Origin: Planctomycetota bacterium
GTDB lineage: Bacteria; Planctomycetota; Phycisphaerae; SM23-33; FEN-1343
Length of the DNA: 64,000 nucleotides
Assembly: GCA_012514895.1 (NCBI GenBank)
Contig: JAAYZK010000249.1
Coordinates: 24,217-88,216 of the forward strand
Direction: 5' to 3'
Positions 4,465 to 62,359 of the stretch are shown piece by piece. The notes beneath the pieces were generated by a model. That model searched no databases, was not told the origin of the DNA, and worked only from the letters and a program-made list of their open reading frames with translations. Both the position numbers and the translations under genes were made by a program. Numbering within the stretch: the first letter of the stretch is position 1; every line of letters begins with the position of its first letter.

Positions 4465-4468
4465 CCCT

Positions 4469-5047: not shown

Positions 5048-5109
5048 CCGGGCGCGTTGCTTGAACGGCGGGGCGGATTTCGTGATGATGGGGGGGATTG
5101 GAGAGAACG

Positions 5110-5916: not shown

Positions 5917-5936
5917 CCGCAGGAGGACACCCCCGC

Positions 5937-7814: not shown

Positions 7815-7815
7815 C

Positions 7816-8667: not shown

Positions 8668-8674
8668 GGCCGCC

Positions 8675-41837: not shown

Positions 41838-43508
41838 ATGGGCATGGGCGAGACATTGGTGGCCAAGGGCGTGATTACGGAAGCCCAGTTGGCCGAAGCG
41901 AATGCGCGTCGGGAGTCGACCGGCCAGCGGCTCGACCGCGCGCTGGTCGACGTCGGGGCCGTCACGTCCGACGCCCTGCTGGCGGCGATGGGGGAGATCC
42001 TCCACTTGCCGGTGATCGACCTGGACGCGGTGACCGTCGACGTCGACGTCCTCCGCGTCATCCCCTCCAAGATGGCCTACCGCAAGCGCCTCGTCCCCGT
42101 CGACCGCGCCAACGGCGTGCTCCGGGTGGCCACCTGCGACCCGTTCGACCTGTACGCCTTCGACGAATTGCGGCTGATCACCGGCCTGCAGGTCGAGCCG
42201 GTGCTCGCGGCGGCCGAGGAGATCGACAAGTTCCTCAAGGCCCATTACGGCCTGGGGGGCGAGACGATCGACGAGCTGATGGGGTCCAAGGATCTCGAGG
42301 TCGTCTCGGCCGAGTCGGGCGAGAATGAAGACCTGATGGAGATGGCCCAGGAGGCCTCGGTCATCAAGCTGGTCAACGAGGTCTTCCTGGAGGCTCTCAA
42401 CCAGCGGGCCAGCGACATCCACATCGAGCCCTACGAGCACGAACTGATCGTCCGCTTCCGCGTGGACGGGGTGCTGCACGAGGCGGCCATGCCCCCGCAG
42501 ATCCAGCGGTTCCAGGCCGCCATCATCAGCCGCATCAAGATCCTGGCGAACCTCAACATCGCCGAGAAGCGCCTGCCCCAGGACGGGCGGATCAAGATCA
42601 TGGCCGGCGGGCGGCAGATCGACATCCGCGTGTCGATCATCCCGATGCTCTTCGGCGAGGGCGTCGTCATGCGCCTGCTGGACAAGTCCACGGTGCTGTA
42701 CACCCTGCCCCAACTGGGCATGAGCGAGCGGGACTTCAACCTCTTCAACCACCTGATCACCCGCCCGCACGGGATCCTCCTGGTCACCGGCCCGACCGGC
42801 AGCGGCAAGACCACCACGCTGTACGCGGCCCTGTCGGCAATCGTCTCCAAGGAGATCAAGGTGCTGACGGTCGAGGACCCGGTGGAATACCACCTCGACG
42901 GGGTCAACCAGATCCAGGTGCAGCCGAAGATCGAGTTCACCTTCGCCCGCGGGCTGCGGGCGATCCTCCGCCACGACCCCGACGTGGCGATGATCGGCGA
43001 GATCCGCGACCTGGAGACCGCCGAGGCGGCCGTCCAGGCGGCCCTGACCGGCCACCTGGTGTTCTCCACCCTGCACACCAACGACGCCTGCTCGGCGCCC
43101 ACCCGCCTGCTGGACATGGGCATCGAGCCGTTCCTGATCACCAGCACGCTGGAGGCCGCCATGGCCCAGCGCCTGGTGCGGACGATCTGCCCCAGGTGCA
43201 AGGAGGTCTACCAGCCCGACATCGACCGCCTCCCGGCCGACTTCGCCATCGAGGCCGGCCAGACGCTCTGGCGCGGGGCCGGCTGCAAGCACTGCCACGG
43301 CACGGGCTACTACGGGCGGACGGGCATCTACGAACTGATGGTGATGAGCCAGAAGATCCGCGACCGGATCATGACCCGCGCCGCCGTCAACGACATCGTC
43401 TCGGCCGCCCGCGACAACGGCATGCGCCTGCTCCGCGAGGACGGCTGGAACAAGGTCCGCGCGGGGATCACCACCCCCGAGGAAGTCATGCGCGTCTCGA
43501 AAGGATAG
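41838..43508 (+). CDS. gspE: GspE/PilB-family type II secretion / type IV pilus assembly ATPase
   Basis: N-terminal T2SSE_N domain (GVITEAQLAEANARRESTGQRLDRALVDVGAV). Walker A GPTGSGKTTTLYA, GEIRDLETA, and a tetracysteine CPRCK...CKHCHGTGY. Confidence 0.92.
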   Translation: MGMGETLVAKGVITEAQLAEANARRESTGQRLDRALVDVGAVTSDALLAAMGEILHLPVIDLDAVTVDVDVLRVIPSKMAYRKRLVPVDRANGVLRVATCDPFDLYAFDELRLITGLQVEPVLAAAEEIDKFLKAHYGLGGETIDELMGSKDLEVVSAESGENEDLMEMAQEASVIKLVNEVFLEALNQRASDIHIEPYEHELIVRFRVDGVLHEAAMPPQIQRFQAAIISRIKILANLNIAEKRLPQDGRIKIMAGGRQIDIRVSIIPMLFGEGVVMRLLDKSTVLYTLPQLGMSERDFNLFNHLITRPHGILLVTGPTGSGKTTTLYAALSAIVSKEIKVLTVEDPVEYHLDGVNQIQVQPKIEFTFARGLRAILRHDPDVAMIGEIRDLETAEAAVQAALTGHLVFSTLHTNDACSAPTRLLDMGIEPFLITSTLEAAMAQRLVRTICPRCKEVYQPDIDRLPADFAIEAGQTLWRGAGCKHCHGTGYYGRTGIYELMVMSQKIRDRIMTRAAVNDIVSAARDNGMRLLREDGWNKVRAGITTPEEVMRVSKG

Positions 43509-43513
43509 GACGC

Positions 43514-44704
43514 TTGCCCACGTTCGTCTACACAGCCCGGAAGCGCAGCGGCGAGCAGGTCGAAGGCCTCATGCAGGCCGACAGCGAAGCCGCCGTCGTG
43601 CGCGCGCTGGACGAGCAGGCGATGGTCCCCGTGCGGATCGTCCCCCAGCAGGCCCCCGGGCGGCGGCGGGGCGGGAAGGTGAGGCTTCGCGAGGTCGGTG
43701 TGATCTACAGCCAGCTCGGGGACCTGCTGGGCGCCGGCGTGCCGATGATGCGGGCGCTGACGATCCTGGCTCGCGTGGGCCTGTCCGACCGGGCCGCCCG
43801 GATCATGGTGGAGGTGCGCGAGAACGTCGCCGCCGGCGAGACGCTGGCCGACGCCATGGACAGGCACCCGGAGGTCTTCAGCGGCCTGCACACCGCCGTC
43901 ATCCGCGCCGGCGAGCGGGCGGGGTTTCTCGAAGACGCCCTGCACAGCCTGGCCGGTTACATCGAACGCCAGGACGAACTGAGCGGCAAGGTCCGCGGCG
44001 CGATGATCTACCCGACGGTGCTGACCGTGGCCGGGGCCGCCATCGTCACGTTCCTGCTGGTCTGGCTGGTGCCCCGGTTCGAGGGAATGTTCGAGGGCAT
44101 GGAAGTGCCCCTGCCCACGAGGGTCCTGTTCGCCCTCAGCGGGCTGCTGCGCCACCACCTGCTGCTGGTGGTGGGGGGGTTGGTCCTGGCGGCCGTCAGC
44201 CTGCGGTCGCTGCTGGGCAGCCGGACCGGGCGGCTGCTGTGGGAGACCTGGCGCCTCAAGCTGCCGGTCCTGGGCAGGACGCTGCAGATGGTGGGCGTCA
44301 CGCGGTTCTGCCGCGTGCTGGGCACGATGCTGGCCAACGGCGTGCCGATCCTTCAGGCCCTGGCCATCGCCAAGGACGCCACCGGTTCGGCGATCATGGC
44401 CGCCAGCATCGAGCAGGCGGCCGAGAACGTCCGCGCCGGCGACGCGCTGGCCGAGCCGCTGGACCGCAGCGGGCTGTTCCCCCCGGAGATCGTCGAGATG
44501 ATCGCCGTCGGCGAGGAGTCCAACCAGTTGGAGACCGTGCTGGTGCGGACGGCCGACACGGTGGACCGGCGGACGGCGCGGCTGGTGGACCAGGCGGTGA
44601 GGCTCATGGAGCCGGTCATCCTGATCCTGCTGGCGGCCCTGGTGGGCTTCATCGCCATGGGCCTGCTGTACCCGGTGTTCATGATGAGTCAGACGCTGCA
44701 GTAG
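43514..44704 (+). CDS. gspF: GspF/PilC-family inner-membrane platform protein
   Basis: TTG start 6 nt after the gspE stop. (L)PTFVYTARKRSGEQVEGLMQADSEAAVVRALDEQAMVPVRI and two T2SSF repeats (LGDLLGAGVPMMRALTIL; LGTMLANGVPILQALAI). Confidence 0.88.
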   Translation: MPTFVYTARKRSGEQVEGLMQADSEAAVVRALDEQAMVPVRIVPQQAPGRRRGGKVRLREVGVIYSQLGDLLGAGVPMMRALTILARVGLSDRAARIMVEVRENVAAGETLADAMDRHPEVFSGLHTAVIRAGERAGFLEDALHSLAGYIERQDELSGKVRGAMIYPTVLTVAGAAIVTFLLVWLVPRFEGMFEGMEVPLPTRVLFALSGLLRHHLLLVVGGLVLAAVSLRSLLGSRTGRLLWETWRLKLPVLGRTLQMVGVTRFCRVLGTMLANGVPILQALAIAKDATGSAIMAASIEQAAENVRAGDALAEPLDRSGLFPPEIVEMIAVGEESNQLETVLVRTADTVDRRTARLVDQAVRLMEPVILILLAALVGFIAMGLLYPVFMMSQTLQ

Positions 44705-44781
44705 CGGCGAGTTCTTACAGGTCCGCCGGCGGTCGGATCCCCGGCGGGCGGGAGTGCCAGATGCTCATGCAGGAGATCGCA

Positions 44782-45252
44782 ATGAACAAGACGCGGAACC
44801 GACGCTCGGCGGGCTTCACGCTGCTGGAAATCATGCTCGTGCTGCTCATTCTGACCATGCTGGCCGGCGGCGCCGTCGTGGGCGTGGTGAAGTACCAGGC
44901 CAGGGCCGAGCGGGACACTACCCTGCTCACCGTCACCAGGATCGAGGAAGCCGTGAACCAGTACCGTCTGGCCGTCGGCGCCTTCCCCGACGAAGACGAG
45001 GGACTCCAGATGCTGATCGCGCCTCCCTCGGACGAGGTCCAGGCCGAGCGGTGGCAGAACGGCGGCCCGTTCGTCGTCGGCGGCAAGCTGCCCAAGGACG
45101 CATGGGGCCGCGATCTGCTCTACAAGGTGACGGATGAGGACGAGGCCAACACCACGGGCCTGTACTTCCGCGTCTATTCCCCCGGCCCCAACGGCGAGGA
45201 CGACAGTGGCACCGGCGATGACATCCCGGCCTGGGCCGAGGATGAGGACTAG
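44782..45252 (+). CDS. gspG: GspG-like major pseudopilin
   Basis: Prepilin N-terminus NRRSAGFTLLEIMLVLLILTMLAG. GspG core LPKDAWGRDLLY...YSPGPNGEDD. AGGAG lies 6 nt upstream of ATG 44782. Confidence 0.85.
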   Translation: MNKTRNRRSAGFTLLEIMLVLLILTMLAGGAVVGVVKYQARAERDTTLLTVTRIEEAVNQYRLAVGAFPDEDEGLQMLIAPPSDEVQAERWQNGGPFVVGGKLPKDAWGRDLLYKVTDEDEANTTGLYFRVYSPGPNGEDDSGTGDDIPAWAEDED

Positions 45253-45847
45253 GCACGGCACTTCCGGCGGCTTCACGCTGCTGGAGGTCCTGCTGGCGAT
45301 GATCCTGCTGGTCCTGCTGGCCGGGGCGGCCGTGTTCGCGTTCTCCGGCTGGCAGACCAGGGCGGCGCTCAACGAGGGCGCCGAACGCTTCGCCGTCGCT
45401 CTTCGGGCCGCGCGGCTTGATGCGGCGCGGCTGGGGCGGCGGCTGCGGATCGCCCCGGACCCCGCGGGCGATGCCAGCGGGACCGGTGCGCCGTTCGTGC
45501 TGACGTGGGAGCCCCGGCCGCTTGAAGCGCCGGGCGAATTCGTTCCCTACGAAGGGCTGTCGGCGGCCCTGCGGCGGGGCGACGATCTCGTCCGCGTTCG
45601 CCGCTGCCGTCTGACAGGCGACGCGGCGTACGGCATCGTCTGGCTGGGCGAGGGCACCGAGACGGACCTGGCGCCGGTGACGTTCTACCCGGACGGCTCG
45701 GGCGACTCGGCCCAGATCGTCCTGGTCAGCGCGGCCGGCGACGACGCCCGGGCGGCCGTGCTGGACGTCGACGGGCTGACCGGCGACGTGACGGTGGACG
45801 TGATGAGCGCCGAGCGGTTCGCCCGGTGGTGGGATGAGCATCCATGA
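45242..45847 (+). CDS. Minor pseudopilin (GspH-like)
   Basis: GGFTLLEVLLAMILLVLLAGAAV prepilin-type N-terminus. Overlaps the gspG 3' end by 11 nt. Confidence 0.6.
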   Translation: MRTRHGTSGGFTLLEVLLAMILLVLLAGAAVFAFSGWQTRAALNEGAERFAVALRAARLDAARLGRRLRIAPDPAGDASGTGAPFVLTWEPRPLEAPGEFVPYEGLSAALRRGDDLVRVRRCRLTGDAAYGIVWLGEGTETDLAPVTFYPDGSGDSAQIVLVSAAGDDARAAVLDVDGLTGDVTVDVMSAERFARWWDEHP

Positions 45848-46245
45848 CCCGATCGCCGCGGACAACCCGACGGACGGCCGGAGTGATCCTCCTGGAGGTC
45901 GTCCTGTCCCTGGCGCTGTTCGCGGCTACCGTGACGACGGTGGCGGCGGCGCTGGGCCGCTGCCATGCGTCGGCCGGCCGCGTGGAACTTCGCGGGCGGG
46001 CCGCCGATCTGGCGGTGACGCTGCGGAGCGAGATCCTGCTGGGGCTGATCGAGCCGGCGCCGACGGATCCGACGGCGTACGAAGATGAACGCCTGGAAGG
46101 CTGGACGTGGCAGTTGGGCGTCGAGACGCTGGAAGAGATCGAACAGACCCTGCGGGTCGTGGCGACCGTCCGTCACGAACCCACCGGCGTCATGAGCCGC
46201 CTGGCCTGGCTGATGGATGATCCCGCCGGCGAGGCGGAACCGTGA
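45844..46245 (+). CDS. Minor pseudopilin (GspI-like)
   Basis: TAGVILLEVVLSLALFAATV N-terminus; about 130 aa; ATGA overlap with the preceding gene. Confidence 0.55.
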   Translation: MTRSPRTTRRTAGVILLEVVLSLALFAATVTTVAAALGRCHASAGRVELRGRAADLAVTLRSEILLGLIEPAPTDPTAYEDERLEGWTWQLGVETLEEIEQTLRVVATVRHEPTGVMSRLAWLMDDPAGEAEP

Positions 46246-46330
46246 GAGCCGGGCGTTGGGACCGGGTGTGTGTGTTCGGCCGCGGCTTGACGCTCGAGCG
46301 GAGATGGCGGGTAGCGTTCCGGTGGAAGCG

Positions 46331-47032
46331 ATGAAGACGACCAACCGCAAGGCATTCACGCTGCTGGAGGTCATCCTGGCGATCAGCCTGGTGCTGGGCG
46401 TCATGGCGGCGGCCTTCCGGTTCTTCCAGTACGTGGCCGCGACGCGCGAGGCGATCGGCGAGCACATGCGGCTGCAGCGGACGGTCCGCGGGGTGATGGA
46501 TCGCCTGACGGTCGAACTGAATGCTGCGATCGGCCGCCCGATGATGGAGGACCGCGTGCTGTGGCTGTCGGACACGCTGGCCTTCCAGACCACCGTGGTG
46601 CCGGGTGCGGCGGCGTGGGCCGATCCGGGACTCGCCGGCGCGCCCGTCCCGCCGGTGCACGACGTCGTCCTGGTCAGCTATGCCCTCCGCACCGGCGAAG
46701 ACGACGCCGGCGGGCAGGTGATCGAGGGGCTGGAACGGACGGCCCTGACGGCGCCGCCGCTGGCGCCGGCCGACGAGACGCCGGCGTTCCAGTCGTCGGT
46801 GCTGCTGGCCGATTGCGTCCGGTTCGTCCGCTTCCGTTACTGGGCGGGCCGCGATGCCGGGGGCATCACCGACGACGGCTGGGTGACCGAATGGACGCAG
46901 ACGGCCGCACCGGCGGCCGTGGAGATCACCCTGGGCCGCGAAGCCCTGCCCGAGGGCATGGACGCCGAGGAGTACCTGGACCGCTACGAGACCTTCCGGC
47001 GGGTCGTGGATGTGCCCGCCGGGCGGGAGTGA
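46331..47032 (+). CDS. Minor pseudopilin (GspJ-like)
   Basis: NRKAFTLLEVILAISLVLGVMAAAF prepilin-type N-terminus; about 230 aa. ATG 46304 is an alternative start. Confidence 0.55.
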   Translation: MKTTNRKAFTLLEVILAISLVLGVMAAAFRFFQYVAATREAIGEHMRLQRTVRGVMDRLTVELNAAIGRPMMEDRVLWLSDTLAFQTTVVPGAAAWADPGLAGAPVPPVHDVVLVSYALRTGEDDAGGQVIEGLERTALTAPPLAPADETPAFQSSVLLADCVRFVRFRYWAGRDAGGITDDGWVTEWTQTAAPAAVEITLGREALPEGMDAEEYLDRYETFRRVVDVPAGRE

Positions 47033-47037
47033 CGCCC

Positions 47038-48540: not shown

Positions 48541-48553
48541 TGAGAGCGCGACT

Positions 48554-51297: not shown

Positions 51298-51380
51298 ACC
51301 GTATAAGCGCCCGGTGCGCCGGTGGTCTGTCCTGACCGGCCGCCGGTGATGGACGTTGCCGCACTGTGAGGAGAAGTTGC

Positions 51381-54300: not shown

Positions 54301-57300
54301 ACGCCGACGCCGAGGAACTGTCCGAGCTGCTCCGAACGATGCTCGACGCCGCCCCGGCGGCGATGGGCCCCGGCGGCCGCGGCGGACCGCAGTTGCGGCT
54401 GCCCGGCGACAGCTCGGTCCGCGTGGCGGCGCAGGCGTCGACCAACAGCGTGATCGTGCAGGGCCCGCCCGAGAAGCTGGCCCTGGCGGCCGAGCTGGTC
54501 GCGCAGTTCGACGTCGCCGAGGCCGGCCAGCGGACGGTGATCGAGATCGTCGCGTTGCAGAACGCCCAGGCCGCCAGCCTGGCCGAGGCGGTCACCGCGT
54601 CGCTGGCGGCCCAGCAGGGCCCCTCCGCGCCCGGCCGGCGCGGGCCGGCGCCGGCCGGCGACCGCAGGCTGGTCACCGTCACCGCCGAGCCGAACTCCAA
54701 CAGCGTGCTCATCCGCGGCCCGGCGGCCGAGGTGCCGGCGGTGGTGGAGATGATCCGCCGCCTGGACGGGTCGGGCAACTCGACGACCCCGCGGCTGAAG
54801 ACCTACCAGCTCCAGCACAACGACGCCGACGACGTGGCCGACCAGCTCGGCACGCTGTTCCGCGACATGATCAAGCAGATGCCCGCGGCCGCGACCCGCC
54901 GGGGCGGGCCGGCGCCGCAGGTGCCCTTCAGCATCAGCGCCGACGGGCGGACCAACTCGCTGATCGTCTCGACGACCGACGCGTACTTCGCCATGTTCGA
55001 GGAACTGCTCGGCCAGCTCGAACAGCCGATGACCAGCGACCGCGAGGTCCACTACATCCCGCTGGTCAACGCCGACGCGTACGACCTGGCCGACTACCTC
55101 CGCACGATGTTTCCCGAGAAGGGGCCCAGCGCGCCGATCATCGAGAGCGACCTGTTCAGCAACTCGCTGACGATCATCGCCAAGGAACTCGATTTCCGCC
55201 GGATGGAGCCGATCATCCAGGAGTTCGACCGCGTCGCGACGGTGACGGTCCGGGTGATCCCGGCGGCGGCGCTGAAGGCCGAGGAGCTGGCCGAGCAGTT
55301 GCGGCGGATCTACCCGCAGGTGTCCGACAGCCAGCTGGAAGTGGTCCAGGAGCTTCCGGCGCGGAACGGCCGGGAGGCCACGGCGACGCCGGTCGTGCCC
55401 GACGCGAACATCCGCCCGGCCGGCGACACGCACGGGCAGACGGTCCCGGCGGCCCCGAACGACCCGATGCACCCGCCGGTGCTCATCGCGATCGACAAGG
55501 TCACCAACTCGCTGATCGTCTCGGGCACCGCCAAGGAACTGGACACGATCGAGGACCTGATCAGCCAGTTGTCGCTGGGGGCGCAGAACGCCGAGGAGGA
55601 GTTCGGCTGGTTCGAGATCAAGCAGGCCGACCCCGAGTCGGTCGCCGCCACGCTCAACGCGCTGTTCAACCCCGCGGCGGCGGCGCGGGCCCAGGCCCGC
55701 CCGCAGCCCCAGCAGCGGCCGGGCGGCCAGGACGACGGGGACGACGATCGCCAGGCCTCCCGCCAGCGCCAGCCCCAGGCCCCGCCGGCGCCGCTGCCCC
55801 GCATCGCCGTCGTCGCCGACGCGCGGACCCGCCACGTGATCGTGCGGGCCAAGCAGGCCGAGCTGGACGACATCGCCCTGATCATCGAGAGGCTCGACCA
55901 GGTGACCACCGTCGTGACGGAGGTGCGGACCTTCCCGCTGAAGAACACCGACGCGACGGAAGTGGCCGAGAACCTCCAGGAGCTGTTTCGCATCTCCTCC
56001 CGCCGCCCCGCCGCCCCCGTGCGGCCGGGCCAGCCCACGCTGGCCCGCGCCGAGGCGGTCCGCCAGATGCTCGAGATGGAAGGCCCCGACGGCCCGATCC
56101 AGGTCGACGCCACCAGCATGGTCGCCATCGCGGCCAACCGGACGACCAACAGCATCGTCGTGTCCGCCCCGGCCGACGCGATGAAGGTGATCGCCGGGAT
56201 CGTCCAGGAGCTCGACCAGTCCGCCGGGGAGACGACGCGCCCCGTGGTGCGCCTGTACCCGGTGGGCGGGGGGGACCTGGACAGCCTCGCCCAGACGATC
56301 CAGACGATCTTCGCCGACGCCGCCGGCCGCACGCCCCGCGGCCCCGGCGGCCGCGCGGCCGCGGCGCCTCAGCAGGCGCCGGTCATCGTGACCGCCGACC
56401 AGGCCGGGCAGGTGCTCATCGTCTCGGCCTCGGCCGACCAGCATGAACTGATCGCCAAGGTCCTCGCCGACGTCCAGGCCGCCCAGGCGACCGCCGGGGC
56501 GGCCCTCGTGCGGGTCTACAAGATCCGCTACGCCGACGCCACCCAGATCGCCAATGCCGTCCAGGGAACCTTCGACCCCTCGTCGCCCGCCCGCCCCGGC
56601 CGCCGGGGTCCGGGCGCCCCCGCCGCCGGCGCGGCGCTGCGGGTGACGGCCGACACCAGCAGCAACTCGGTCGTCATCAGCGCCGTCGCCGAGGAGCACG
56701 AGCGGATCGCCGCGATCATCGCCGAGATGGACACCCCTCCCGGCGGCGAATCGCTGGTACGGGCCATCCCGCTGGCCAGCGCCGACGCCCAGGCGACCGC
56801 CCAGGTGCTCACCCGCGTGTTCGCACCCCAGCAGGGCGGCCGCCGCTCGGCCGCCGCTTCGGTGGTCATCGAGGGCAACCGCGACTCGCGGACGCTGCTG
56901 GTCCGCGCCGATGACGAGACCTTCCAGCGGATCCGCGCGATGGCCGAGCAGTTGGACACCACGACCGCCTCGGAGACGGTCGGCGTGTTCATTCTGCCGC
57001 TGACCCGCGCCAAGGCGGCGCAGATGGCCCAGCGCATCACGGACCTGCACGGCCAGCAGGTCGCCGCGGCCCGGCGGGGCAACACGACGGTCGAGCCGAT
57101 CGCGGTGACCGCCGACGAGCGGGCCAACGCCCTGGTCCTGGCCTGCACCGCCGAACAGTTCGAGCAGGTCAGCCAGTGGGTCAACCAGATCGAGGAGATG
57201 AATCCCCGCCGGGGCGAGCCGCGGATCCTCAAGCTGCAGTATGCCGACCCGGAAGAGGTGGAGCAGGCGATCCGCCAGCTCTTCGGCGGGTCAGCCCCGC

Positions 57301-60300
57301 CCCGCGGCGGCGCCGCCGGCGGCGACCTGCCGTTCGAGATGACCGTCCTGCCCAACCAGCGACAACTGCTCATCGAGGCGTCCGACGAGGACTGGGAGAT
57401 GATCCGCCAGTTGGTCGAGACGCTCGACACGGCCGCCGCGGCGGCCAAGCCGGAGATGCGGCTGTTCGTGCTCAAGCACGCCAACCCCTCCCGCATCGCC
57501 CAGTCGCTCAACCAGATGTTCCAGCGGCTCGCCCGCACCGGCCGCCCCGAGGACGCGGTGACGGTCACCGCCCTGGAGCAGACCAACTCGATCGTCGTCG
57601 CCGGCTCGACCGGGCGGATCGAGGACGCCGCCCGCCTGATCGAACAGCTCGACACCGAGACGGTCAGCCCGGAGGTGCAGTTCAGGATCTACCCTTTGGA
57701 GCACGCCCAGCCCTCCAAGGTGATCGGCCTGCTGGACACGATGCTCCGGGAGTACCGCCGGGCCAACCCCGACCAGCCGGTGGGGCTGGTGGCCGATGAG
57801 CCCACCCGGTCGATTGTCGTGACCGGGCGGCCCAAGGCGTTCGAGGAGATCGAGAAGATCCTCGCGGCCCTGGACGTCGAACCGGCCACGCCGGCGACCG
57901 AGGTGCGGATCCTCCCGCTGATGAAGGCCGAGGCCGGCCCGCTGGCCGAGGTGCTCAACGAGATGCTCCGCCCCAGCCGCGAAGGCCAGGTCACCCCCGA
58001 AGCCCGGGCCCTCCAGGAGCAGGTCCGGCGGCTGAAGGTCGTGGGGCCGGACGGCAAGGCGGTGCCCGAGCTGGACCTGACCCGCCCGATCAAGATCAGC
58101 GCCGACCCCGCCGGCGGCGGGGGGCGCGGCTCCAACGCGCTGATCCTCTCGTCGACGCCGGAGAACGTCGCGGCCCTGGCGGCGGTCGTGGCGATCATGG
58201 ACACGGTGCCCATCAGCGAGACGGTCGTGGTGAAGATCGAGCATCTCCGGCACGCCGACGCCGCCAGCGTCCTGGAGGTGCTGCGGGAGATCTTCACCGA
58301 GGGCGCCAAGCAGCTTGCCGGCACGCCCGGCGGGCCGGTGGCCGGACGCGCCCAGCCGGCGACCCAGCCGGGGCGCGGGCTGGTCAAGCCCCTGAACGTC
58401 TCGGCCGACCCCCGCACCAACACGCTGATCCTCAGCGGCGCGCCCGACACGCTCGAACTGGCCTCCCGCGTCATCGCCGACCTGGACCAGGAAGCCTCCG
58501 GCGTGGCCACGGAGGTCCGCCTGTTCCCGCTGCAGTACGCCGACGCCGTCCGCCTGGCCGACGTGCTGGAAGCGGTCTTCGCCGAGGAGGAAGGGCGCGG
58601 CGGGGACGCGGCGGCCGAGGGCGTGCGGACGCACGCGACCCGACTGGTCCGCACGATGCCCGGCGGGGAACAGTTGGCGACGCAGTTTCCCCGCACCCGC
58701 GCGGCGCTGACGATCGAGGCCGACGAGGCCACCAACACGCTGATCGTCGCCGCCCGGCGGGACATGATGCCCCTCATCGCCGACGTGATCGCCTCGATGG
58801 ACATCCCCGGGGCCGGGGCGATGAACGGGGTGCGGATCGTCCCGCTGACCCACGCCAACGCCGGCACGATGGCCGAGATGCTGCAGGACCTGTTCGACCG
58901 GCGCTACGAGGCGGCCAGGACCGAGGACCTCCAGCGGCAGAAGCCCATCATCCTGCCGGAGGTGCGGACCAACTGCCTGCTGGTGGTCGCCAACGCCAGC
59001 GACAGCCAGGTGCTGGCAGACCTGCTGGCGAAACTCGACGTCAAGCCCGTCAACCCCTCGGTGCACCTGGCGGTGCTGGCCCTGGCGCACAACGACGCCG
59101 GCGTCGTCGCACCCGTGATCGAGGACATCTTCGAAGCCCGCCGCGACGCCATGACCCCCCAGGGCACCCAGCCGGCCCCGCAGGACCAGGTGAGCGTCGA
59201 GATCGACGCGCTGAACAACGCCCTGATCGTCGCGGCCAGCGCCGAGAACCTCGAGCTGATCCGCGAGCTGCTGGCCAAGGTCGACATCGAGCCGACGGCC
59301 GTCGAGGGCATCGTGAGGCTCTACCCGCTGATCAACGCCGACGCCCAGCGGATCGCCGAACTGCTCGAGTCGCTCGTCAGCGACGGGCTGTACAAGCCCG
59401 GTATCGCCGTTGCCGGCGACAGCGACCTGATCGAGGCCCGCGAGAAGGTCTCTATCGTCGCCGACCTGCGGACCAACGTGCTGGTCGTCTCGGCGTCGCG
59501 GGAGAACTTCGCGGTGATCGAGAAGATCATCGCCCAGCTCGACGCCGCCGACGGGTACGGGCTGCTGGGCGGCGTGCGCCTCTACACGCTGAAGACCGCC
59601 GACGCCGAGACGCTGGCCCAGACGCTCAAGGACTTCTTCGACTCCAAGCGCAGCAGCGAAGAGGCCACCGGCGGCGTCGCCCGTTCGCTGGAGGTGACCA
59701 TCGTCCCCGATGCGCGGACCAACACGCTGCTGGTCGCCGGCGGGCGGGAGTGCTTCGCCGAGATCGAGGCGATGATCGCCCGGCTCGACGCTGACGGGAC
59801 GCCCCGCGGGACGGCGCCGACGGTCTTCCCGCTGCGCAAGGCCCGGGCGGCCCAGGTCGTCGACTCCATCACGCAGCTGTACGAGAGCCAGGGCGGGCTG
59901 GAGAAGATCGGGCTGTCGATCAGCGCCGACGAGCGGACCAACGCCGTCATCCTCAGCGGCGGGGCCGCCGACATCGAGCGGATCGGGCAGATCATCGAGA
60001 AGCTCGACGCCGGCAACGTGACCCACGTGATGGAGATCCGCGTGATCCCGCTGCGGCAGGCCGACGCGACGGAACTGGCCGATCTGCTGGACACGACACT
60101 GACGACGGCGCCCCGGTCGCCCAACGGCGATGACGCGGCCCTCCAGGCGATGATGCAGTTCATCCGCCATCTGCCCGGCGGCGAGCAGGTCGTCAGCCGC
60201 GCCCTGCAGGAGGGCGTCGTGATCGCCCCCGACGCGCGGGCCAACGCCCTGGTCGTCGTGGCGGCGGCCGACGCGATGAACCTTCTGACCCATCTCATCG

Positions 60301-61868
60301 AGGCCCTCGACTCGGTGGCCACCCCGGCCGCCCAGATCCGGATGTTCCGCCTGGCCAACGCCGACGCCGCCCAGATGGCCACGGTGCTCAGCGAGCTGTT
60401 CCGCCTGGAGAACGCCGCCGGCGACCCCAAGGCTGCCAGCTACACGCTGACGACGGCCGACGGCGGGGCGGGCGGCGCGAGCGTCACGATGGACACGGCG
60501 GCCAAGGCGTCGCTGACGGTGACGGTCGACACGCGGACCAACACGCTGCTGCTGGGCGGGTCCCAGCAGTACGTCCAGATGGCCGCCGAGGTGATCGCCG
60601 AACTGGACAACGACCCCGGGCTGGAGCGCGTGCCGGTGGTCTACCGGCTGCGCAACGCCAAGGCGACCGACATCGAGGATGCGGTCCGCCAGTGGCTCGA
60701 CGACGAGCGCCAGCGGATCATCGACGCGATGGGCGGGGACGCCGGGGCCGTCCCGCGCCTGATGGAGCAGGAGGTGTCGGTCGTGGCGGTCACCAGCACC
60801 ACCACCATCGGCGAGACGGAGATCGAAACGTCCAACACGCTGCTGATCGCCGCCAGCCAGCGGTACCTCAACACGATCCTGTCGATGATCGACCAGCTCG
60901 ATCAGCCCCAGCCCCAGGTGCACATCAGCGTCATCATGGCCGCCGTCAGGCTCGACGAGACGATGCAGTTGGGGTTCGATTGGGACCTGCAGATGGGGTT
61001 CGAGTGGGACACCGAGAACGTGCTGAACGCCGGAACGTTCCTCGGCACGGTCGGCCAGAACGGCTTCCTGAACGGCGGGCTGAACCTCGCCGTGACGGGC
61101 GGGGACGTGAAGTTCTTCCTCCAGGCGCTGCAGAGCAAGGGCAACCTGGAGGTGATCGCGCGGCCGACGATCACGGCGATGGACAACCACCTGGCGATGA
61201 TCAACATCGCCGAGCGGGTGCCTTACCTGACCAACACGCGGATCACCGACAGCGGGGCCGTCATCAACTCCATCGACTACGAAGAGGTCGGCGTGATCCT
61301 CGAGGTGACCCCGCGGATCAGCCCCGACGGGTTCATCCTGATGGACGTGAAGCCGGAACTCAGTTCGCAGTCCGGGACGTCGCTGGACCTGGGCGGGGGG
61401 GCCTCCTCGCCGATCTTCAGCCAGCGGACGGCCAGCACCACGGTGTCGGTGCGGGACGGGCAGTCCATCGTCATTGGCGGGCTGATCGACACCTCCAAGG
61501 ACAGGATCGAGACGAAGATTCCGCTGCTGGGCGACATCCCCGTGCTGGGACGGCTGTTCCGCCGGACCGTCGACGAGGACCGGCGGACGGAGTTCCTGAT
61601 GATCCTGACGCCGCGGATCATCCGCAACGACGTCGACGCGCAGGACCTGACCCGCCGGGAGATCGGCCAGACCCACCTGTGCCCCGAGTCGCTGGCGCCG
61701 TTCAACCAGGCGCTGCTGGGCGACCAGACCGGCGAGGGCGGGCCGAGCCTTCCGGCCAACACGCCGGCGACGCTGGATGGCGGCGTCGCGCCGCGATCGG
61801 TCCGCATCCCCATGGAGCGTGCCGAGCCGCTGGGCCCGCACGTGACCGTCATCGGAGGTGCACGGTGA
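51381..61868 (+). CDS. gspD: Giant secretin (GspD/PilQ family), ~3,495 aa: signal, Pro/Glu-rich spacer, N0-like domain, ~34 Secretin_N-like modules, secretin beta-barrel domain
   Basis: ATG 51381 is preceded by GAGGAG. The C-terminus carries canonical secretin blocks (NLEVIARPTITAMDNHLAMINIAERVPY...YEEVGVILEVTPRISPDG...VSVRDGQSIVIGGLI...IPLLGDIPVLGRLFR...FLMILTPRII). Upstream is a long series of modules ending in ...ADxRTNxLhVxA....LIxxLD. Uninterrupted strong GC3 frame. Confidence 0.9.
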   Translation: MWLKRTIVSVLVVLMLAAAWQVVTAVDVQAQEAPAEALPDWEAEARQLEEIRRARANQREEVQDEGPTEPPVEEPAGEEPGEPEQPQAPQPPQGRPAVVRPALTRPSSRPSSPARAATPAPRPMPASTPPPVEAAGPGGDDRPVIYLQYQDVPITSVVRRFSQAAGKPLIGDYNVDGTITFFDSQPYTLKEAMDVINILLGMRNYYLVEDGRFLRLVTLDDSVGAPWPIQAGLDSTEGLRDEQLVTVLLPLRYLDAKEAGDLVVRMVSSFGSIAPLAKSKGLLITDRLSNIRRVAGFLKLVDTVETTEDAQMEIVELTTAKAGDVAAVIDNLWGPAAAPRRTVYDERTRRNVAQPPDPRDIIRTSHDDRTNILVISGDPAKLKLARQMIERLDTPNGAAGGEFRIYELKHANAEELAATINQTLGSPVDPRRRLPGLPGAGDGPRVTADAATNRLIVSAAVDKMAEIQRLIESLDEARAEGTGWRVVKLAHADAPQMAAIVTEATRKRDARGRVISTVSVSADPATNTLIIAGSAGDLDAAAVLIGQLDVSGASETLEVRVVRIDNGDVRTLARSLSMVLADSSPGAAGPGRRLPPQLTGGRIRIEADPVSSTLIIAAPAGEWPRIEQVLAGLESATASTEMSTQLIPLKHAAADEMAATLRQVFGPAMRRGGVPAMASPVQIAPSRQANALLVSGSPDEIARVAELVAQLDVAEAGAADPVAMIQLTAADANEVAVALKSMLPPPARGQQQSVFIAADPKSNMVMLRAPAAEREQLEAMIARLDQATSGTARETRIHPLKHVSASDLAPMLTDLYASSPADPRSGGRMRMPSLAGGDNRVVITPAPGDRALVIDAPAGRIEPILQLVASLDVESGGAAALLPRSYSLQVADAAELARSLARLFAEQQQRLPRSPMAPVAGGGEPQPRFEAERRTNTLLVAATAEQYPVIEQLIASLDAGAEPIEVTKVFPLQHADAEELSELLRTMLDAAPAAMGPGGRGGPQLRLPGDSSVRVAAQASTNSVIVQGPPEKLALAAELVAQFDVAEAGQRTVIEIVALQNAQAASLAEAVTASLAAQQGPSAPGRRGPAPAGDRRLVTVTAEPNSNSVLIRGPAAEVPAVVEMIRRLDGSGNSTTPRLKTYQLQHNDADDVADQLGTLFRDMIKQMPAAATRRGGPAPQVPFSISADGRTNSLIVSTTDAYFAMFEELLGQLEQPMTSDREVHYIPLVNADAYDLADYLRTMFPEKGPSAPIIESDLFSNSLTIIAKELDFRRMEPIIQEFDRVATVTVRVIPAAALKAEELAEQLRRIYPQVSDSQLEVVQELPARNGREATATPVVPDANIRPAGDTHGQTVPAAPNDPMHPPVLIAIDKVTNSLIVSGTAKELDTIEDLISQLSLGAQNAEEEFGWFEIKQADPESVAATLNALFNPAAAARAQARPQPQQRPGGQDDGDDDRQASRQRQPQAPPAPLPRIAVVADARTRHVIVRAKQAELDDIALIIERLDQVTTVVTEVRTFPLKNTDATEVAENLQELFRISSRRPAAPVRPGQPTLARAEAVRQMLEMEGPDGPIQVDATSMVAIAANRTTNSIVVSAPADAMKVIAGIVQELDQSAGETTRPVVRLYPVGGGDLDSLAQTIQTIFADAAGRTPRGPGGRAAAAPQQAPVIVTADQAGQVLIVSASADQHELIAKVLADVQAAQATAGAALVRVYKIRYADATQIANAVQGTFDPSSPARPGRRGPGAPAAGAALRVTADTSSNSVVISAVAEEHERIAAIIAEMDTPPGGESLVRAIPLASADAQATAQVLTRVFAPQQGGRRSAAASVVIEGNRDSRTLLVRADDETFQRIRAMAEQLDTTTASETVGVFILPLTRAKAAQMAQRITDLHGQQVAAARRGNTTVEPIAVTADERANALVLACTAEQFEQVSQWVNQIEEMNPRRGEPRILKLQYADPEEVEQAIRQLFGGSAPPRGGAAGGDLPFEMTVLPNQRQLLIEASDEDWEMIRQLVETLDTAAAAAKPEMRLFVLKHANPSRIAQSLNQMFQRLARTGRPEDAVTVTALEQTNSIVVAGSTGRIEDAARLIEQLDTETVSPEVQFRIYPLEHAQPSKVIGLLDTMLREYRRANPDQPVGLVADEPTRSIVVTGRPKAFEEIEKILAALDVEPATPATEVRILPLMKAEAGPLAEVLNEMLRPSREGQVTPEARALQEQVRRLKVVGPDGKAVPELDLTRPIKISADPAGGGGRGSNALILSSTPENVAALAAVVAIMDTVPISETVVVKIEHLRHADAASVLEVLREIFTEGAKQLAGTPGGPVAGRAQPATQPGRGLVKPLNVSADPRTNTLILSGAPDTLELASRVIADLDQEASGVATEVRLFPLQYADAVRLADVLEAVFAEEEGRGGDAAAEGVRTHATRLVRTMPGGEQLATQFPRTRAALTIEADEATNTLIVAARRDMMPLIADVIASMDIPGAGAMNGVRIVPLTHANAGTMAEMLQDLFDRRYEAARTEDLQRQKPIILPEVRTNCLLVVANASDSQVLADLLAKLDVKPVNPSVHLAVLALAHNDAGVVAPVIEDIFEARRDAMTPQGTQPAPQDQVSVEIDALNNALIVAASAENLELIRELLAKVDIEPTAVEGIVRLYPLINADAQRIAELLESLVSDGLYKPGIAVAGDSDLIEAREKVSIVADLRTNVLVVSASRENFAVIEKIIAQLDAADGYGLLGGVRLYTLKTADAETLAQTLKDFFDSKRSSEEATGGVARSLEVTIVPDARTNTLLVAGGRECFAEIEAMIARLDADGTPRGTAPTVFPLRKARAAQVVDSITQLYESQGGLEKIGLSISADERTNAVILSGGAADIERIGQIIEKLDAGNVTHVMEIRVIPLRQADATELADLLDTTLTTAPRSPNGDDAALQAMMQFIRHLPGGEQVVSRALQEGVVIAPDARANALVVVAAADAMNLLTHLIEALDSVATPAAQIRMFRLANADAAQMATVLSELFRLENAAGDPKAASYTLTTADGGAGGASVTMDTAAKASLTVTVDTRTNTLLLGGSQQYVQMAAEVIAELDNDPGLERVPVVYRLRNAKATDIEDAVRQWLDDERQRIIDAMGGDAGAVPRLMEQEVSVVAVTSTTTIGETEIETSNTLLIAASQRYLNTILSMIDQLDQPQPQVHISVIMAAVRLDETMQLGFDWDLQMGFEWDTENVLNAGTFLGTVGQNGFLNGGLNLAVTGGDVKFFLQALQSKGNLEVIARPTITAMDNHLAMINIAERVPYLTNTRITDSGAVINSIDYEEVGVILEVTPRISPDGFILMDVKPELSSQSGTSLDLGGGASSPIFSQRTASTTVSVRDGQSIVIGGLIDTSKDRIETKIPLLGDIPVLGRLFRRTVDEDRRTEFLMILTPRIIRNDVDAQDLTRREIGQTHLCPESLAPFNQALLGDQTGEGGPSLPANTPATLDGGVAPRSVRIPMERAEPLGPHVTVIGGAR
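52110..60915 (+). repeat. Protein-level tandem array of about 34 diverged Secretin_N-type (N1-N3-like) modules inside the giant secretin
   Basis: By-eye segmentation of the translation gives modules of about 70-115 aa. Each has hRhhxLxxA(D/N)A...L...hF, a variable Pro/Gly/Arg-rich loop, hxhxADxxTNxLhhxA and hxxLhxxLD. Examples: ATNRLIVSA, RTNTLLVAA, STNSVIVQG, RTNSLIVST, TTNSIVVSA, RTNTLILSG, RTNVLVVSA, RTNAVILSG. The DNA copies are not near-identical. Confidence 0.8.
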
Positions 61869-62359
61869 GGCGAGGACTGATGCTCATCCTGGCCGCGCTG
61901 GCGGCGGTGCCGGCCGGCTGCGGAGGGCCGATCCTGCGCGGCGCCGGCGGCGCCGGCCCGGCCGCCGACCAGGTCACGCTGTGGGCGGCGCCCCTGGCGG
62001 AGGACGCCGACGGCCGCTCGGGCACGGACGGCGTCTCAGTGCGCCTGATCTTCTACGACGTCGCCCCTGGGGGAAAGACCGAGGCGGTGGTCGTCCGCCA
62101 GGGGGTGGATCTGGCGATGTACGAGGGCGACCTCCGCGGCCGCCGCCTGGACGACGCCGAGCCGTTCCACGTCTGGCAGGTGACCGGCGAGCAGCTTGCG
62201 GCCTTCCGCTCGGCCTACTATGGCCTGCGCTGCTACGCCCTGACGCTCTACTGGCCCGGCCATCGCCCCGCCAGCGGCACCGTCACCCTCGTCGCACGCT
62301 ACCAGAACGAAAACGGACGCCTCCTGCAGTCCCAGCCGGCCGTGATCAGGATCCGCTGA
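61865..62359 (+). CDS. Small lipoprotein downstream of the secretin (candidate pilotin or accessory)
   Basis: GTG 61865 overlaps the secretin stop (GTGA), with GGAGG 7 nt upstream. Lipobox LAALAAVPAGC. About 164 aa with no recognisable family. Confidence 0.6.
   Translation: MRRGLMLILAALAAVPAGCGGPILRGAGGAGPAADQVTLWAAPLAEDADGRSGTDGVSVRLIFYDVAPGGKTEAVVVRQGVDLAMYEGDLRGRRLDDAEPFHVWQVTGEQLAAFRSAYYGLRCYALTLYWPGHRPASGTVTLVARYQNENGRLLQSQPAVIRIR

What the first reader, a model, noticed from the sequence alone, without database searches (positions are those of the whole stretch)
41838..62359. Hybrid T2SS/T4P-like operon in which the alignment complex is condensed into two fusion proteins
Seen: the gene order is gspE, gspF, gspG, four minor pseudopilins, a 547-aa PilM-like/TM/PilN-like protein, a 366-aa PilO/GspM-like protein, the giant secretin and a lipoprotein. 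The 366-aa protein has a C-terminus (SRDLFRPF ... YRIVGLSTW...LVGDKLGDGTIACVDYR...ILKIGERYYAVELG) that resembles PilP / the GspC HR domain. Several junctions are translationally coupled (ATGA, TGATG, GTGA, an 11-nt overlap). No separate GspC, GspL, GspM or prepilin peptidase (GspO/PilD) gene is in the window. Inference: the cytoplasm-to-secretin connection is provided by PilMN and PilOP fusions, which is T4aP logic under a T2SS-like pseudopilin set. To traverse a ~34-ring secretin the (pseudo)pilus would need to be much longer than a classical T2SS piston.
Basis: partly seen in the sequence, partly recalled or inferred. Interest (0 to 1): 0.65.

Follow-up and report, generated by a model that had tools for sequence, protein, structure and literature searches.

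The report
Planctomycete T2SS with fused GspM–GspC
This is a type II secretion operon from an uncultured planctomycete in which two proteins instead of three link the inner membrane to a huge 34-ring outer-membrane channel. One of them is a fusion of GspM with a GspC-like domain that I found described nowhere.

Summary
Bases 41838-62359 (+ strand) hold one co-directional gene set: gspE, gspF, gspG, four minor pseudopilins (H/I/J/K-like), a 547-aa protein, a 366-aa protein, a 3495-aa secretin and a lipoprotein.

- **547-aa protein:** a full PilM-type actin-like domain, a TM helix with coiled coil, and a small alpha/beta periplasmic domain. That architecture is what defines GspL, so it is T2SS logic. 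The unusual point is that its cytoplasmic domain is PilM-like rather than GspL-like.
- **366-aa protein:** a GspM-like module, then an RDLFRPF motif, a Pro-rich tether and a confidently folded beta domain. Three weak but concordant tests link that beta domain to the GspC HR / PilP domain. It is best called a GspM-GspC(HR) fusion without a PDZ domain.
- **Conservation:** 163 of 182 family proteins examined carry both halves, and the other 19 look like fragments. A giant secretin gene (2476-4967 aa where fully read) follows directly in every related locus examined.

No paper describing this was found. It is a new variant of a known kind. Docking of the beta domain on N0, the missing prepilin peptidase and the substrates remain untested.

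The parts
41838..43508 (+). gspE, the assembly ATPase. It has an N-terminal MshEN-type domain with a c-di-GMP-binding motif.
   Evidence: Pfam T2SSE 1.7e-140 and MshEN 4e-22. TIGR02533 GspE 642.8 bits, cut-off 630.25. NF053729 c-di-GMP motif 41.7 bits, cut-off 38.
43514..44704 (+). gspF, the polytopic inner-membrane platform protein. It has a TTG start 5 nt after the gspE stop.
   Evidence: Pfam T2SSF 2.2e-50 in two stretches. TIGR02120 GspF 2.5e-97, below its cut-off. Junction read.
44782..45252 (+). gspG, the major pseudopilin.
   Evidence: Pfam T2SSG 7e-18 and N_methyl. TIGR01710 95.7 bits, cut-off 88.85.
45242..45847 (+). GspH-like minor pseudopilin. It overlaps gspG by 11 nt.
   Evidence: Pfam GspH 2.4e-5 and N_methyl. 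TIGR01708 3.5e-9. Junction read.
45844..46245 (+). GspI-like minor pseudopilin. It shares an ATGA overlap with the H-like gene.
   Evidence: TIGR01707 gspI 2.3e-4, below cut-off. I read its N-terminal hydrophobic segment (GVILLEVVLSLALFA) as prepilin-like.
46331..47032 (+). GspJ-like minor pseudopilin.
   Evidence: Pfam T2SSJ 8.6e-4 and N_methyl. NF006453 3.6e-6.
47038..48540 (+). GspK-like minor pseudopilin, the tip subunit.
   Evidence: Pfam T2SSK_1st 2.7e-13, T2SSK 8e-6 and HHH_3. NF037980 GspK 1.7e-28.
48554..50197 (+). 547-aa GspL-equivalent. It has a PilM-type cytoplasmic domain (aa ~12-335) and an FDLLDPKRP motif (aa ~341-349). A TM helix plus coiled coil (aa ~355-421) and an alpha/beta periplasmic domain (aa ~426-509) follow.
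   Evidence: PDB profile search: PilM 4e-21 over aa 14-332, GspL periplasmic domain 0.15, PilN 0.35. AF2 model pLDDT 75.6 with secondary structure. Foldseek: PilM 3e-19 with TMt 0.65-0.73, GspL cytoplasmic domain 1e-8 with TMt 0.54. PilM_2 in 11 of 11 relatives.
50197..50736 (+). GspM-like module of the 366-aa protein (aa 1-180). It holds an N-terminal TM helix (aa ~7-30) and the periplasmic domain.
   Evidence: NF040576 GspM_XpsM in 32 of 34 family members, best 3.4e-11. Pfam T2SSM and T2SSM_b in 18-19 of 34.
50737..50949 (+). Tether of the 366-aa protein (aa ~181-251). It contains the conserved RDLFRPF motif (aa 216-222, nt 50842-50862) and a Pro-rich linker.
   Evidence: R216 invariant, L218, R220 and P221 nearly invariant in 34 sequences. 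pLDDT is 60-80 in the model.
50950..51297 (+). C-terminal beta domain of the 366-aa protein (aa ~252-345) plus a short tail. It is a probable GspC-HR/PilP-like domain that would bind the secretin.
   Evidence: AF2 mean pLDDT 86, about 95 over the domain, nine strands. Foldseek 7oio LspC: prob 0.84, rmsd 2.5 A over 73 columns. GspC_delta 1.1e-4, in 13 of 34 members, best 2e-7. hhalign against GspC HR: P = 0.0058 over 68 collinear columns.
51381..61868 (+). 3495-aa secretin. In order: signal peptide, a ~110-aa Pro/Glu-rich segment, and N0 (aa 148-214). Then come 33 tandem N-domains (aa 312-3176, nt 52314-60908) and the secretin core (aa 3249-3415).
   Evidence: Pfam Secretin_N 1154 bits in 32 stretches, Secretin 6e-49, type_II_gspD_N0 1.8e-7. 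My own iterated HMM finds 33 units with regular 5-11-aa spacers.
61880..62359 (+). 159-aa protein, a predicted lipoprotein (N-terminus ...VPAGC), directly after the secretin. It is a candidate pilotin or accessory protein.
   Evidence: Sequence; the lipobox is my reading. No Pfam or NCBIfam match. A 30%-identical homologue (E = 1e-12) sits in the same position after the secretin in L006.

Best explanation
This is a type II secretion-type machine of a lineage of Planctomycetota. The few hits that carry names are Phycisphaerae or unclassified planctomycete metagenome bins.

GspE and GspF would power assembly of a GspG pseudopilus capped by the H/I/J/K-like minor pseudopilins.

The envelope-spanning scaffold consists of two polypeptides rather than three.
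1. **A GspL-equivalent.** Its cytoplasmic domain is a complete PilM-type actin-like domain joined covalently to a PilN/GspL-like TM helix, coiled coil and alpha/beta periplasmic domain. By analogy it anchors the ATPase to the membrane.
2. **A GspM-GspC(HR) fusion.** The GspM-like TM and periplasmic module would pair with the periplasmic part of the first protein. A tether of about 70 residues, Pro-rich and carrying a conserved RDLFRPF motif, presents a C-terminal beta domain. That domain would dock on the N0 ring at the membrane-proximal end of the secretin.

The secretin carries N0 plus 33 ring-building domains. If they stack as in known secretins, the conduit is of the order of 100 nm or more. 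The pseudopilus, or whatever travels inside, would have to act over that distance.

**Shown:** the domain identities, the fusion architecture, its conservation, and its linkage to giant secretin genes.

**Inferred:** all protein-protein contacts, the stacking and length of the conduit, and secretion as the function.
For: - **T2SS-type core.** GspE and GspG exceed NCBIfam equivalog cut-offs. GspK-type domains and a GspD-type N0 domain are present.
- **547-aa protein.**
  - PilM gives E = 4e-21 by sequence profile.
  - PilM gives E = 3e-19 and TMt up to 0.73 by fold. The best matches by TM-score include the PilM:PilN(1-12) chimera 5eou.
  - A long helix spans aa 355-421. Helices and strands alternate over aa 426-509.
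  - Weak GspL_C, T2SSM and PilN signals appear in that region.
- **366-aa protein.**
  - GspM_XpsM matches 32 of 34 members.
  - The C-terminal half matches GspC_delta collinearly across motif, linker and beta domain.
  - The only Foldseek hit with probability above 0.3 among the 50 listed is the GspC HR domain of Legionella LspC.
  - hhalign against a GspC-HR alignment gives P = 0.0058 over 68 collinear columns. The lineage-specific 'RPxPxPxxPxxLS' hairpin falls in a gap.
  - A disordered arm followed by a beta sandwich is how the review describes PilP and GspC HR (PMC4471445).
- **Conservation.**
  - The beta domain finds 263 cluster representatives at 50% identity, 245 of them below 1e-10.
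  - Of 182 beta-domain proteins examined, 163 also carry the GspM-like half. The other 19 are fragments shorter than 230 aa.
  - The two genes are adjacent in every related locus, with 1-4-nt overlaps in most. An N0-encoding secretin gene starts 300-700 nt downstream in all of them.
Against: - **Weak links for the beta domain.**
  - The Foldseek E-value is 1.5, at rank 20.
  - The hhalign probability is 6%.
  - GspC_delta scores 22 bits against a cut-off of 150.
  - That hit disappears when the beta domain, or the motif plus linker, is scanned alone.
  - No PDB or Pfam sequence hit was obtained for this domain.
- **Periplasmic domain of the 547-aa protein.** It is identified only by secondary structure and hits at E around 0.1.
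- **Limited reach.** Only 64 kb of the genome is visible. A separate GspC with a PDZ domain, a GspN or a prepilin peptidase may lie elsewhere.
- **Function.** No substrate or expression data were examined.
Confidence: 0.7

Rival explanations
1. The operon builds a surface filament, that is a type IV pilus-like fibre, rather than a secretion piston. The long secretin would then be a sheath for a fibre that leaves the cell. It could be one of the fibres seen on planctomycete surfaces.
For: - The cytoplasmic scaffold domain is PilM-type, not GspL-type.
- The ATPase also scores highly for PilB (585.9 bits) and carries an MshE-type c-di-GMP motif.
- A short piston could not span a conduit of about 34 rings.
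Against: - GspE and GspG pass the T2SS equivalog cut-offs, while PilB does not (585.9 bits against 675.65).
- A GspK-type tip subunit is present. To my knowledge this is typical of T2SS.
- The secretin has a GspD-type N0 domain and no AMIN domain.
- No PilT-type retraction ATPase lies in the operon. The only other T2SSE-family ATPase I identified in the window is the FHA-CpaF of the Tad locus.
Confidence: 0.2
2. The C-terminal beta domain of the 366-aa protein is a lineage-specific domain unrelated to GspC HR or PilP. It might bind peptidoglycan, pseudopilins or substrate. The link to the secretin would then be made by another protein encoded elsewhere.
For: - No Pfam or PDB sequence match was found.
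- An exhaustive HMMER search listed only proteins with this same architecture among its best 150 hits.
- Foldseek E-values are all above 0.4.
- The beta domain scanned alone gives no GspC hit.
Against: - Three independent weak signals all point to GspC HR.
- The layout of a disordered arm followed by a beta domain matches PilP and GspC HR.
- The gene lies directly upstream of an N0-bearing secretin gene in every locus examined.
Confidence: 0.2
3. The two 'fusion proteins' are artefacts of assembly, frameshift or gene calling, and are really separate pilM/pilN and gspM/gspC genes.
For: High-GC sequence produces many long spurious ORFs. Metagenome assemblies can also carry frameshifts.
Against: - Continuous reading frames of the same length and architecture recur in the 34 homologues and in 163 of the family proteins examined, drawn from many independent assemblies.
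- Third-position GC is 0.89-0.94 across both ORFs.
- The linker regions are conserved in position.
Confidence: 0.02

Closest known systems
Classical type II secretion system (Gsp/Pul/Eps/Xcp, GspC-O)
   Same: - GspE, GspF and GspG are present, with GspE and GspG above the equivalog cut-offs.
- An H/I/J/K-like minor pseudopilin set and a GspD-type secretin with N0 are present.
- The gene order E-F-G-H-I-J-K-L-M matches that of E. coli gspE-M.
- The L-equivalent has the cytoplasmic actin-like, TM and periplasmic layout.
   Different: - The secretin gene is last, not second.
- The L-equivalent has a PilM-type cytoplasmic domain. Pfam T2SSL and GspL_C, which hit E. coli GspL at 2e-84 and 6e-42, barely register here.
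- GspC is not a separate TM-HR-PDZ protein. It appears only as an HR-like domain fused to the C-terminus of GspM.
- No gspO, gspN, gspA/B or gspS lies in the locus.
- The secretin has 33 N-domains, where classical GspD has N1-N3 to my knowledge.
Type IVa pilus alignment subcomplex PilMNOP-PilQ
   Same: - A complete PilM-type domain is present. Pfam PilM_2 is above its gathering cut-off, and Foldseek gives TM up to 0.73.
- The motif FDLLDPKRP resembles the PilN N-terminal peptide that binds PilM. That resemblance rests on my own knowledge of the INLLP-type motif.
- A disordered arm followed by a beta domain is the way PilP reaches PilQ N0.
   Different: - PilM and PilN are covalently joined.
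- The second protein matches GspM models, not PilO models.
- The PilP-like domain has no lipobox of its own.
- The secretin has no AMIN domains.
- No PilT, no PilA-type major pilin and no PilY1 are present.
GspC of delta-proteobacterial/myxobacterial T2SS (NCBIfam NF041515 GspC_delta)
   Same: It is the only GspC or PilP model that matches the 366-aa family. Residues 187-330 align collinearly with profile positions 37-164. It matches 13 of 34 members, best 2e-7.
   Different: - The scores (around 22 bits) are far below the equivalog cut-off of 150.
- The N-terminal TM region and the C-terminal half (positions 165-311) of the GspC_delta model have no counterpart here.
- The hit needs motif, linker and beta domain together.
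Thermus thermophilus PilQ, a long secretin spanning a wide periplasm
   Same: Extra N-domain rings lengthen the periplasmic conduit. In Thermus, six rings give a complex 350 A long, described as one of the largest characterised and as spanning most of a wide periplasm (PMC5745081).
   Different: - This secretin has 34 rings, against six in Thermus.
- It belongs to a T2SS-type operon, not to a pilus and DNA-uptake system.
- It has not been studied experimentally.

Membership tests
Type II secretion system | GspD-family secretin with an N0 domain | tested here: met
   Pfam Secretin 6e-49 and type_II_gspD_N0 31.3 bits against a cut-off of 27.
Type II secretion system | GspE ATPase and GspF platform protein | tested here: met
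   TIGR02533 GspE scores 642.8, above its cut-off of 630.25. GspF matches Pfam T2SSF at 2e-50, while TIGR02120 scores 326.6, below its cut-off of 424.
Type II secretion system | GspG major pseudopilin plus a GspH/I/J/K minor pseudopilin set | tested here: met
   TIGR01710 GspG is above its cut-off. The H, I, J and K models match in the expected gene order, but all below their equivalog cut-offs.
Type II secretion system | GspL: cytoplasmic actin-like domain, TM helix and periplasmic ferredoxin-like domain in one chain | tested here: inconclusive
   The architecture is met. Sequence membership is not: Pfam T2SSL matches 1 of 11 relatives at 9e-4 and GspL_C 2 of 11 at 0.07. The domain is closer to PilM.
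Type II secretion system | GspM | tested here: inconclusive
   NF040576 matches 32 of 34 members (best 3.4e-11), and Pfam T2SSM and T2SSM_b match 18-19 of 34. The window protein itself scores 22 bits, below the cut-off of 60.
Type II secretion system | Prepilin peptidase GspO/PilD | tested here: not met
   None lies in the 64-kb window. The gene is often unlinked, and the rest of the genome cannot be tested with these tools.
GspC | Own N-terminal TM helix | tested here: not met
   The HR-like domain is C-terminal to the GspM-like module and shares that module's TM helix.
GspC | HR domain, a small beta sandwich that binds the secretin N0 | tested here: inconclusive
   Foldseek against LspC gives prob 0.84 and rmsd 2.5 A, but E = 1.5. 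GspC_delta gives 1e-4 to 2e-7. hhalign gives P = 0.0058. Pfam T2SSC gives no hit. Binding was not tested.
GspC | C-terminal PDZ or coiled-coil domain | tested here: not met
   The protein ends about 20 residues after the beta domain, and no PDZ hit was found.
Type IVa pilus machine | PilM actin-like protein | tested here: met
   Pfam PilM_2 scores 53.2 bits against a cut-off of 27. PDB PilM gives 4e-21. Foldseek gives 3e-19.
Type IVa pilus machine | Separate PilN, PilO and PilP, with PilP a lipoprotein | tested here: not met
   The PilN-like part is fused to PilM. No PilO or PilP Pfam hit was found, and the beta domain has no lipobox.
Type IVa pilus machine | PilQ with AMIN domains, PilT retraction ATPase and PilA-type pilin | tested here: not met
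   No AMIN domain was found. No PilT-type gene was identified in the window. The major subunit is GspG-type.

The most novel reading that the evidence does not exclude
In this planctomycete lineage the T2SS has been rebuilt to work across an unusually wide periplasm. A secretin tube of 25-50 stacked rings, roughly 100-150 nm, would run from the outer membrane down to the inner membrane. There a fixed 1:1 GspM-GspC fusion would clamp its N0 ring to a PilM-type platform. A pseudopilus many times longer than any known T2SS piston, or a true fibre, would travel inside. Such a structure could underlie one of the unexplained envelope complexes of planctomycetes. It would also give a natural covalent constraint on the debated GspC:GspM stoichiometry.
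Probability: 0.3. Interest if true: 0.8.

Novelty: new variant of a known kind. Interest (0 to 1): 0.6.

Why it matters
- **Stoichiometry.** How the inner-membrane platform (GspC/L/M, or PilM/N/O/P) is arranged and how it couples to the 12-15-fold secretin is, to my knowledge, still debated. A lineage in which GspM and the secretin-binding domain of GspC are one polypeptide fixes their ratio at 1:1. It also shows that the PDZ domain and the separate GspC anchor can be dispensed with.
- **Evolution.** A GspL-equivalent that is still recognisably PilM plus PilN looks like a link between the pilus and secretion branches of the type IV filament superfamily.
- **Mechanics.** With secretins six to eight times longer than the Thermus PilQ, called one of the largest characterised, the locus asks how a piston model can work over about 100 nm.
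- **Annotation.** The 366-aa family has at least 245 clusters at 50% identity. In the databases searched it is either unnamed or called 'hypothetical protein'.

Tried and rejected
- **Exact-sequence look-up** of the 366-aa protein: not on record.
- **PDB sequence-profile searches** with the full family alignment and with the beta domain alone: no relevant hit.
- **Pfam on all 34 family members:** only T2SSM and T2SSM_b, nothing for the C-terminal domain.
- **hhalign against the narrow E. coli K-12 GspC family alone:** no signal, probability below 1%. Adding the ETEC GspC and OutC HR sequences and a 182-sequence query alignment gave P = 0.0058.
- **NCBIfam on dissected constructs** (beta domain alone, motif plus linker, linker deleted): no GspC hit. 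The GspC_delta match therefore needs the whole C-terminal half and is only moderate evidence.
- **Exhaustive HMMER with the beta domain.** I hoped it would bridge to stand-alone PilP or GspC proteins. Among the best 150 hits it returned only the same fused architecture. Weaker hits were not listed.
- **The search for related loci** with alignments failed because no stretch was conserved enough. With the single protein it found one related MAG locus. The taxonomic range therefore rests on the few source names (Planctomycetota, Phycisphaerae).
- **Homologue search with E. coli GspC:** only 16 close relatives, a poor template.
- **Literature searches** for giant secretins, planctomycete T2SS and PilMN or GspM-GspC fusions found no description.
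- **Gene-calling artefact as an explanation for the fusions:** rejected on conservation.
Full report
**Observation**

The window has about 72% G+C. Between 41838 and 62359 the + strand carries eleven co-directional genes.

| Gene | Coordinates | Main evidence |
|---|---|---|
| gspE | 41838-43508 | T2SSE 1.7e-140; TIGR02533 642.8 bits, cut-off 630.25 |
| gspF | 43514-44704 | T2SSF 2e-50 |
| gspG | 44782-45252 | TIGR01710 95.7 bits, cut-off 88.85 |
| H-like | 45242-45847 | weaker but ordered matches to GspH |
| I-like | 45844-46245 | weaker match to GspI |
| J-like | 46331-47032 | weaker match to GspJ |
| K-like | 47038-48540 | T2SSK_1st 2.7e-13 |
| 547-aa protein | 48554-50197 | PilM_2 2.8e-14 |
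| 366-aa protein | 50197-51297 | weak GspM hits |
| secretin | 51381-61868 | N0, 32 Secretin_N stretches, secretin core |
| lipoprotein | 61880-62359 | no family match |

An iterated HMM built from the secretin's own repeats finds 33 tandem N-domains at residues 312-3176, with regular 5-11-residue spacers. With N0 that makes 34.

There is an 11-nt gspG/H overlap, ATGA at H/I, and TGATG between the 547-aa and 366-aa genes. GTGA is optional at J/K and at secretin/lipoprotein.

No prepilin peptidase and no separate gspC, gspL or gspM was found in the window.

**The 547-aa protein**

- A profile of 11 homologues matches solved PilM structures over residues 14-332 at E = 4e-21. It touches the periplasmic domain of GspL (E = 0.15) and PilN (E = 0.35) only weakly.
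- The AlphaFold model has mean pLDDT 75.6. It shows an actin-like domain, a long helix at residues 355-421 that includes the TM segment, and alternating helices and strands at residues 426-509.
- Foldseek ranks PilM first, at 3e-19 with TM normalised to target of 0.65-0.73. The best matches by TM-score include the PilM:PilN(1-12) chimera 5eou. FtsA comes next, and the cytoplasmic domain of GspL follows only at 1e-8 with TM 0.54.
- All 11 relatives hit Pfam PilM_2. One or two also hit T2SSL, GspL_C or T2SSM weakly.
- Just after the PilM-type domain lies a conserved F-D-[FL]-L-x-P-K-R-P motif, modelled with pLDDT of about 85. From my own knowledge it resembles the N-terminal PilN peptide that binds PilM.

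The review literature, however, treats the PilMN complex as the orthologue of GspL. It treats PilN and PilO as the counterparts of the GspL periplasmic domain and of GspM (PMC4471445). A PilM-TM-PilN chain is therefore the GspL architecture. The unusual point is that its cytoplasmic domain has stayed PilM-like.

**The 366-aa protein**

Thirty-eight homologues were found. Those that carry names come from Planctomycetota or Phycisphaerae metagenome bins, and most cover 94-100% of the query. The alignment of 34 of them shows four parts:

- an N-terminal TM helix;
- a module of about 170 residues;
- a nearly invariant RDLFRP[YF] motif;
- a Pro-rich linker followed by a well conserved C-terminal domain of about 95 residues.

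The N-terminal module matches NCBIfam GspM_XpsM in 32 of 34 members (best 3.4e-11). It matches Pfam T2SSM and T2SSM_b in 18-19 of 34. No PilO model matched.

The C-terminal domain folds confidently, with mean pLDDT 86 and about 95 over the domain, into an all-beta domain of nine strands. Evidence on its identity is as follows.

- *Negative:* it has no Pfam or PDB sequence match.
- *NCBIfam:* GspC_delta aligns collinearly with residues 187-330 at E = 1.1e-4. It matches 13 of 34 members, best 2e-7. The hit needs motif, linker and beta domain together.
- *Foldseek:* among the 50 matches listed, the only one with probability above 0.3 is the NMR structure of Legionella LspC, a GspC HR domain. It has prob 0.84 and rmsd 2.5 A over 73 columns, although E = 1.5 and rank 20.
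- *hhalign:* a 182-sequence alignment of the domain against nine GspC-HR sequences gives P = 0.0058. The 68 aligned columns are collinear, and the lineage-specific Pro-rich hairpin falls in a gap. The program's calibrated probability is only 6%.

Each line is weak. They are independent, though, and they point to the same small domain. A disordered arm followed by a beta sandwich is also how PilP and GspC HR are described. I put the GspC-HR/PilP assignment at about 75%. The protein lacks GspC's own TM helix and its PDZ or coiled-coil domain.

**Conservation and linkage**

- An exhaustive HMMER search with the beta domain found 263 cluster representatives at 50% identity, 245 of them below 1e-10. 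Nearly all are 330-400 aa long with the domain at about residues 245-340.
- Of 182 proteins with the domain, 163 also carry the GspM-like half. The remaining 19 are shorter than 230 aa and start inside the linker or the domain, so they look like fragments.
- In related loci the PilM-type gene, the fusion gene and a secretin gene are always adjacent.
- Where the secretin gene was read in full it encodes 2476, 4138 or 4967 aa.
- An N0-coding segment starts 300-700 nt after the fusion gene in every locus, including one where gene calling had missed the secretin.
- In one locus the E-K genes are divergently oriented, but the three-gene module stays intact.
- The lipoprotein after the secretin recurs at 30% identity in L006.

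**Mechanism (inferred)**

1. GspE and GspF assemble GspG under an H/I/J/K tip.
2. The PilM-type domain of the GspL-equivalent holds the ATPase at the membrane.
3. Its periplasmic domain pairs with the GspM-like module of the fusion.
4. The Pro-rich tether of about 70 residues could reach roughly 20 nm if extended, by my own estimate.
5. The tether presents the HR-like domain to the N0 ring.

Thermus PilQ, with six rings, is 350 A long. It is described as one of the largest characterised and as spanning most of a wide periplasm (PMC5745081). By simple extrapolation, 34 rings would give a conduit of the order of 100-140 nm. Planctomycetes are reported to have an enlarged periplasm (PMC11131199). 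Whether the rings stack in this way, and what moves inside, is unknown.

**Comparison and novelty**

By composition this is a T2SS, not a T4aP. The GspE and GspG equivalogs pass their cut-offs. A GspK-type subunit and a GspD-type N0 domain are present. There is no AMIN domain, no PilT and no PilA. It departs from the classical system in four ways:

- the PilM-type L-equivalent;
- the GspM-GspC(HR) fusion without a PDZ domain;
- the position of the secretin gene at the end of the operon;
- the number of secretin rings.

Six literature searches of the held library found no description of any of these features in planctomycetes. I file it as a new variant of a known kind.

**Limits**

- No interaction was modelled or measured.
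- The beta-domain assignment rests on weak statistics.
- Only 64 kb of the genome is visible.
- The taxonomic range rests on a few source names.

Noticed in passing
window 2212-9616 (+): A second type IV filament locus of the Tad/Flp type lies here. It comprises a TadG-like protein (Pfam Tad), a TadE-like protein, RcpC/CpaB, a CpaF-type ATPase with an N-terminal FHA domain, and two T2SSF-family genes that I read as TadB and TadC. I saw no secretin, Flp pilin or prepilin peptidase beside it.
   Followed up: partly
window 41838-42000 (GspE residues 3-51): The GspE ATPase carries an MshE-type c-di-GMP-binding motif. NF053729 scores 41.7 bits against a cut-off of 38, and Pfam MshEN gives 4e-22. 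This suggests that the machine is regulated by c-di-GMP.
   Followed up: no
window 51381-61868; L001 11087-end; L006 11403-18833; L007 11105-end: Secretin length varies widely among relatives: 2476, 3495, 4138 and 4967 aa. The number of N-domain rings is therefore evolving quickly in this lineage.
   Followed up: partly
window 51480-51820 (secretin residues ~35-145): Between the signal peptide and N0 the secretin has a Pro/Glu/Ala-rich, apparently disordered segment of about 110 residues. It would sit at the inner-membrane end of the conduit.
   Followed up: no
window 61880-62359; L006 18859-19476: A predicted lipoprotein with no family match follows the secretin, and it recurs at 30% identity (E = 1e-12) in the same position in L006. 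It is a candidate pilotin or secretin accessory protein.
   Followed up: partly
L005 11189-20723: In this NCBI MAG the region after the fusion gene is annotated as many small ORFs, most of them on the reverse strand. tblastn nevertheless finds N0 and N-domain repeats on the + strand. The giant secretin seems to have been missed or broken by gene calling.
   Followed up: partly
L005 1-963; L007 7077-8348: Genes with EF-hand Pfam matches, all weak or faint, lie next to the operon in two relatives. The PilM-type protein of L005 also has faint EF-hand hits. A calcium link is possible.
   Followed up: no
protein P0136 (185 aa): One beta-domain protein begins with a segment that looks to me like an ExbD/TolR-type N-terminus (…EINMVPLIDVMLVLLVIFIITAP…) rather than the GspM-like module. 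It could be a different fusion partner or an assembly chimera.
   Followed up: no
window 45242-45847 and 47038-48540: The H-like and K-like pseudopilins give weak hits to the 'Verru_Chthon cassette' proteins D and A of Verrucomicrobia (TIGR02596 at 7e-4, TIGR02600 at 5e-3). This hints at a pseudopilin set shared across the PVC superphylum.
   Followed up: no
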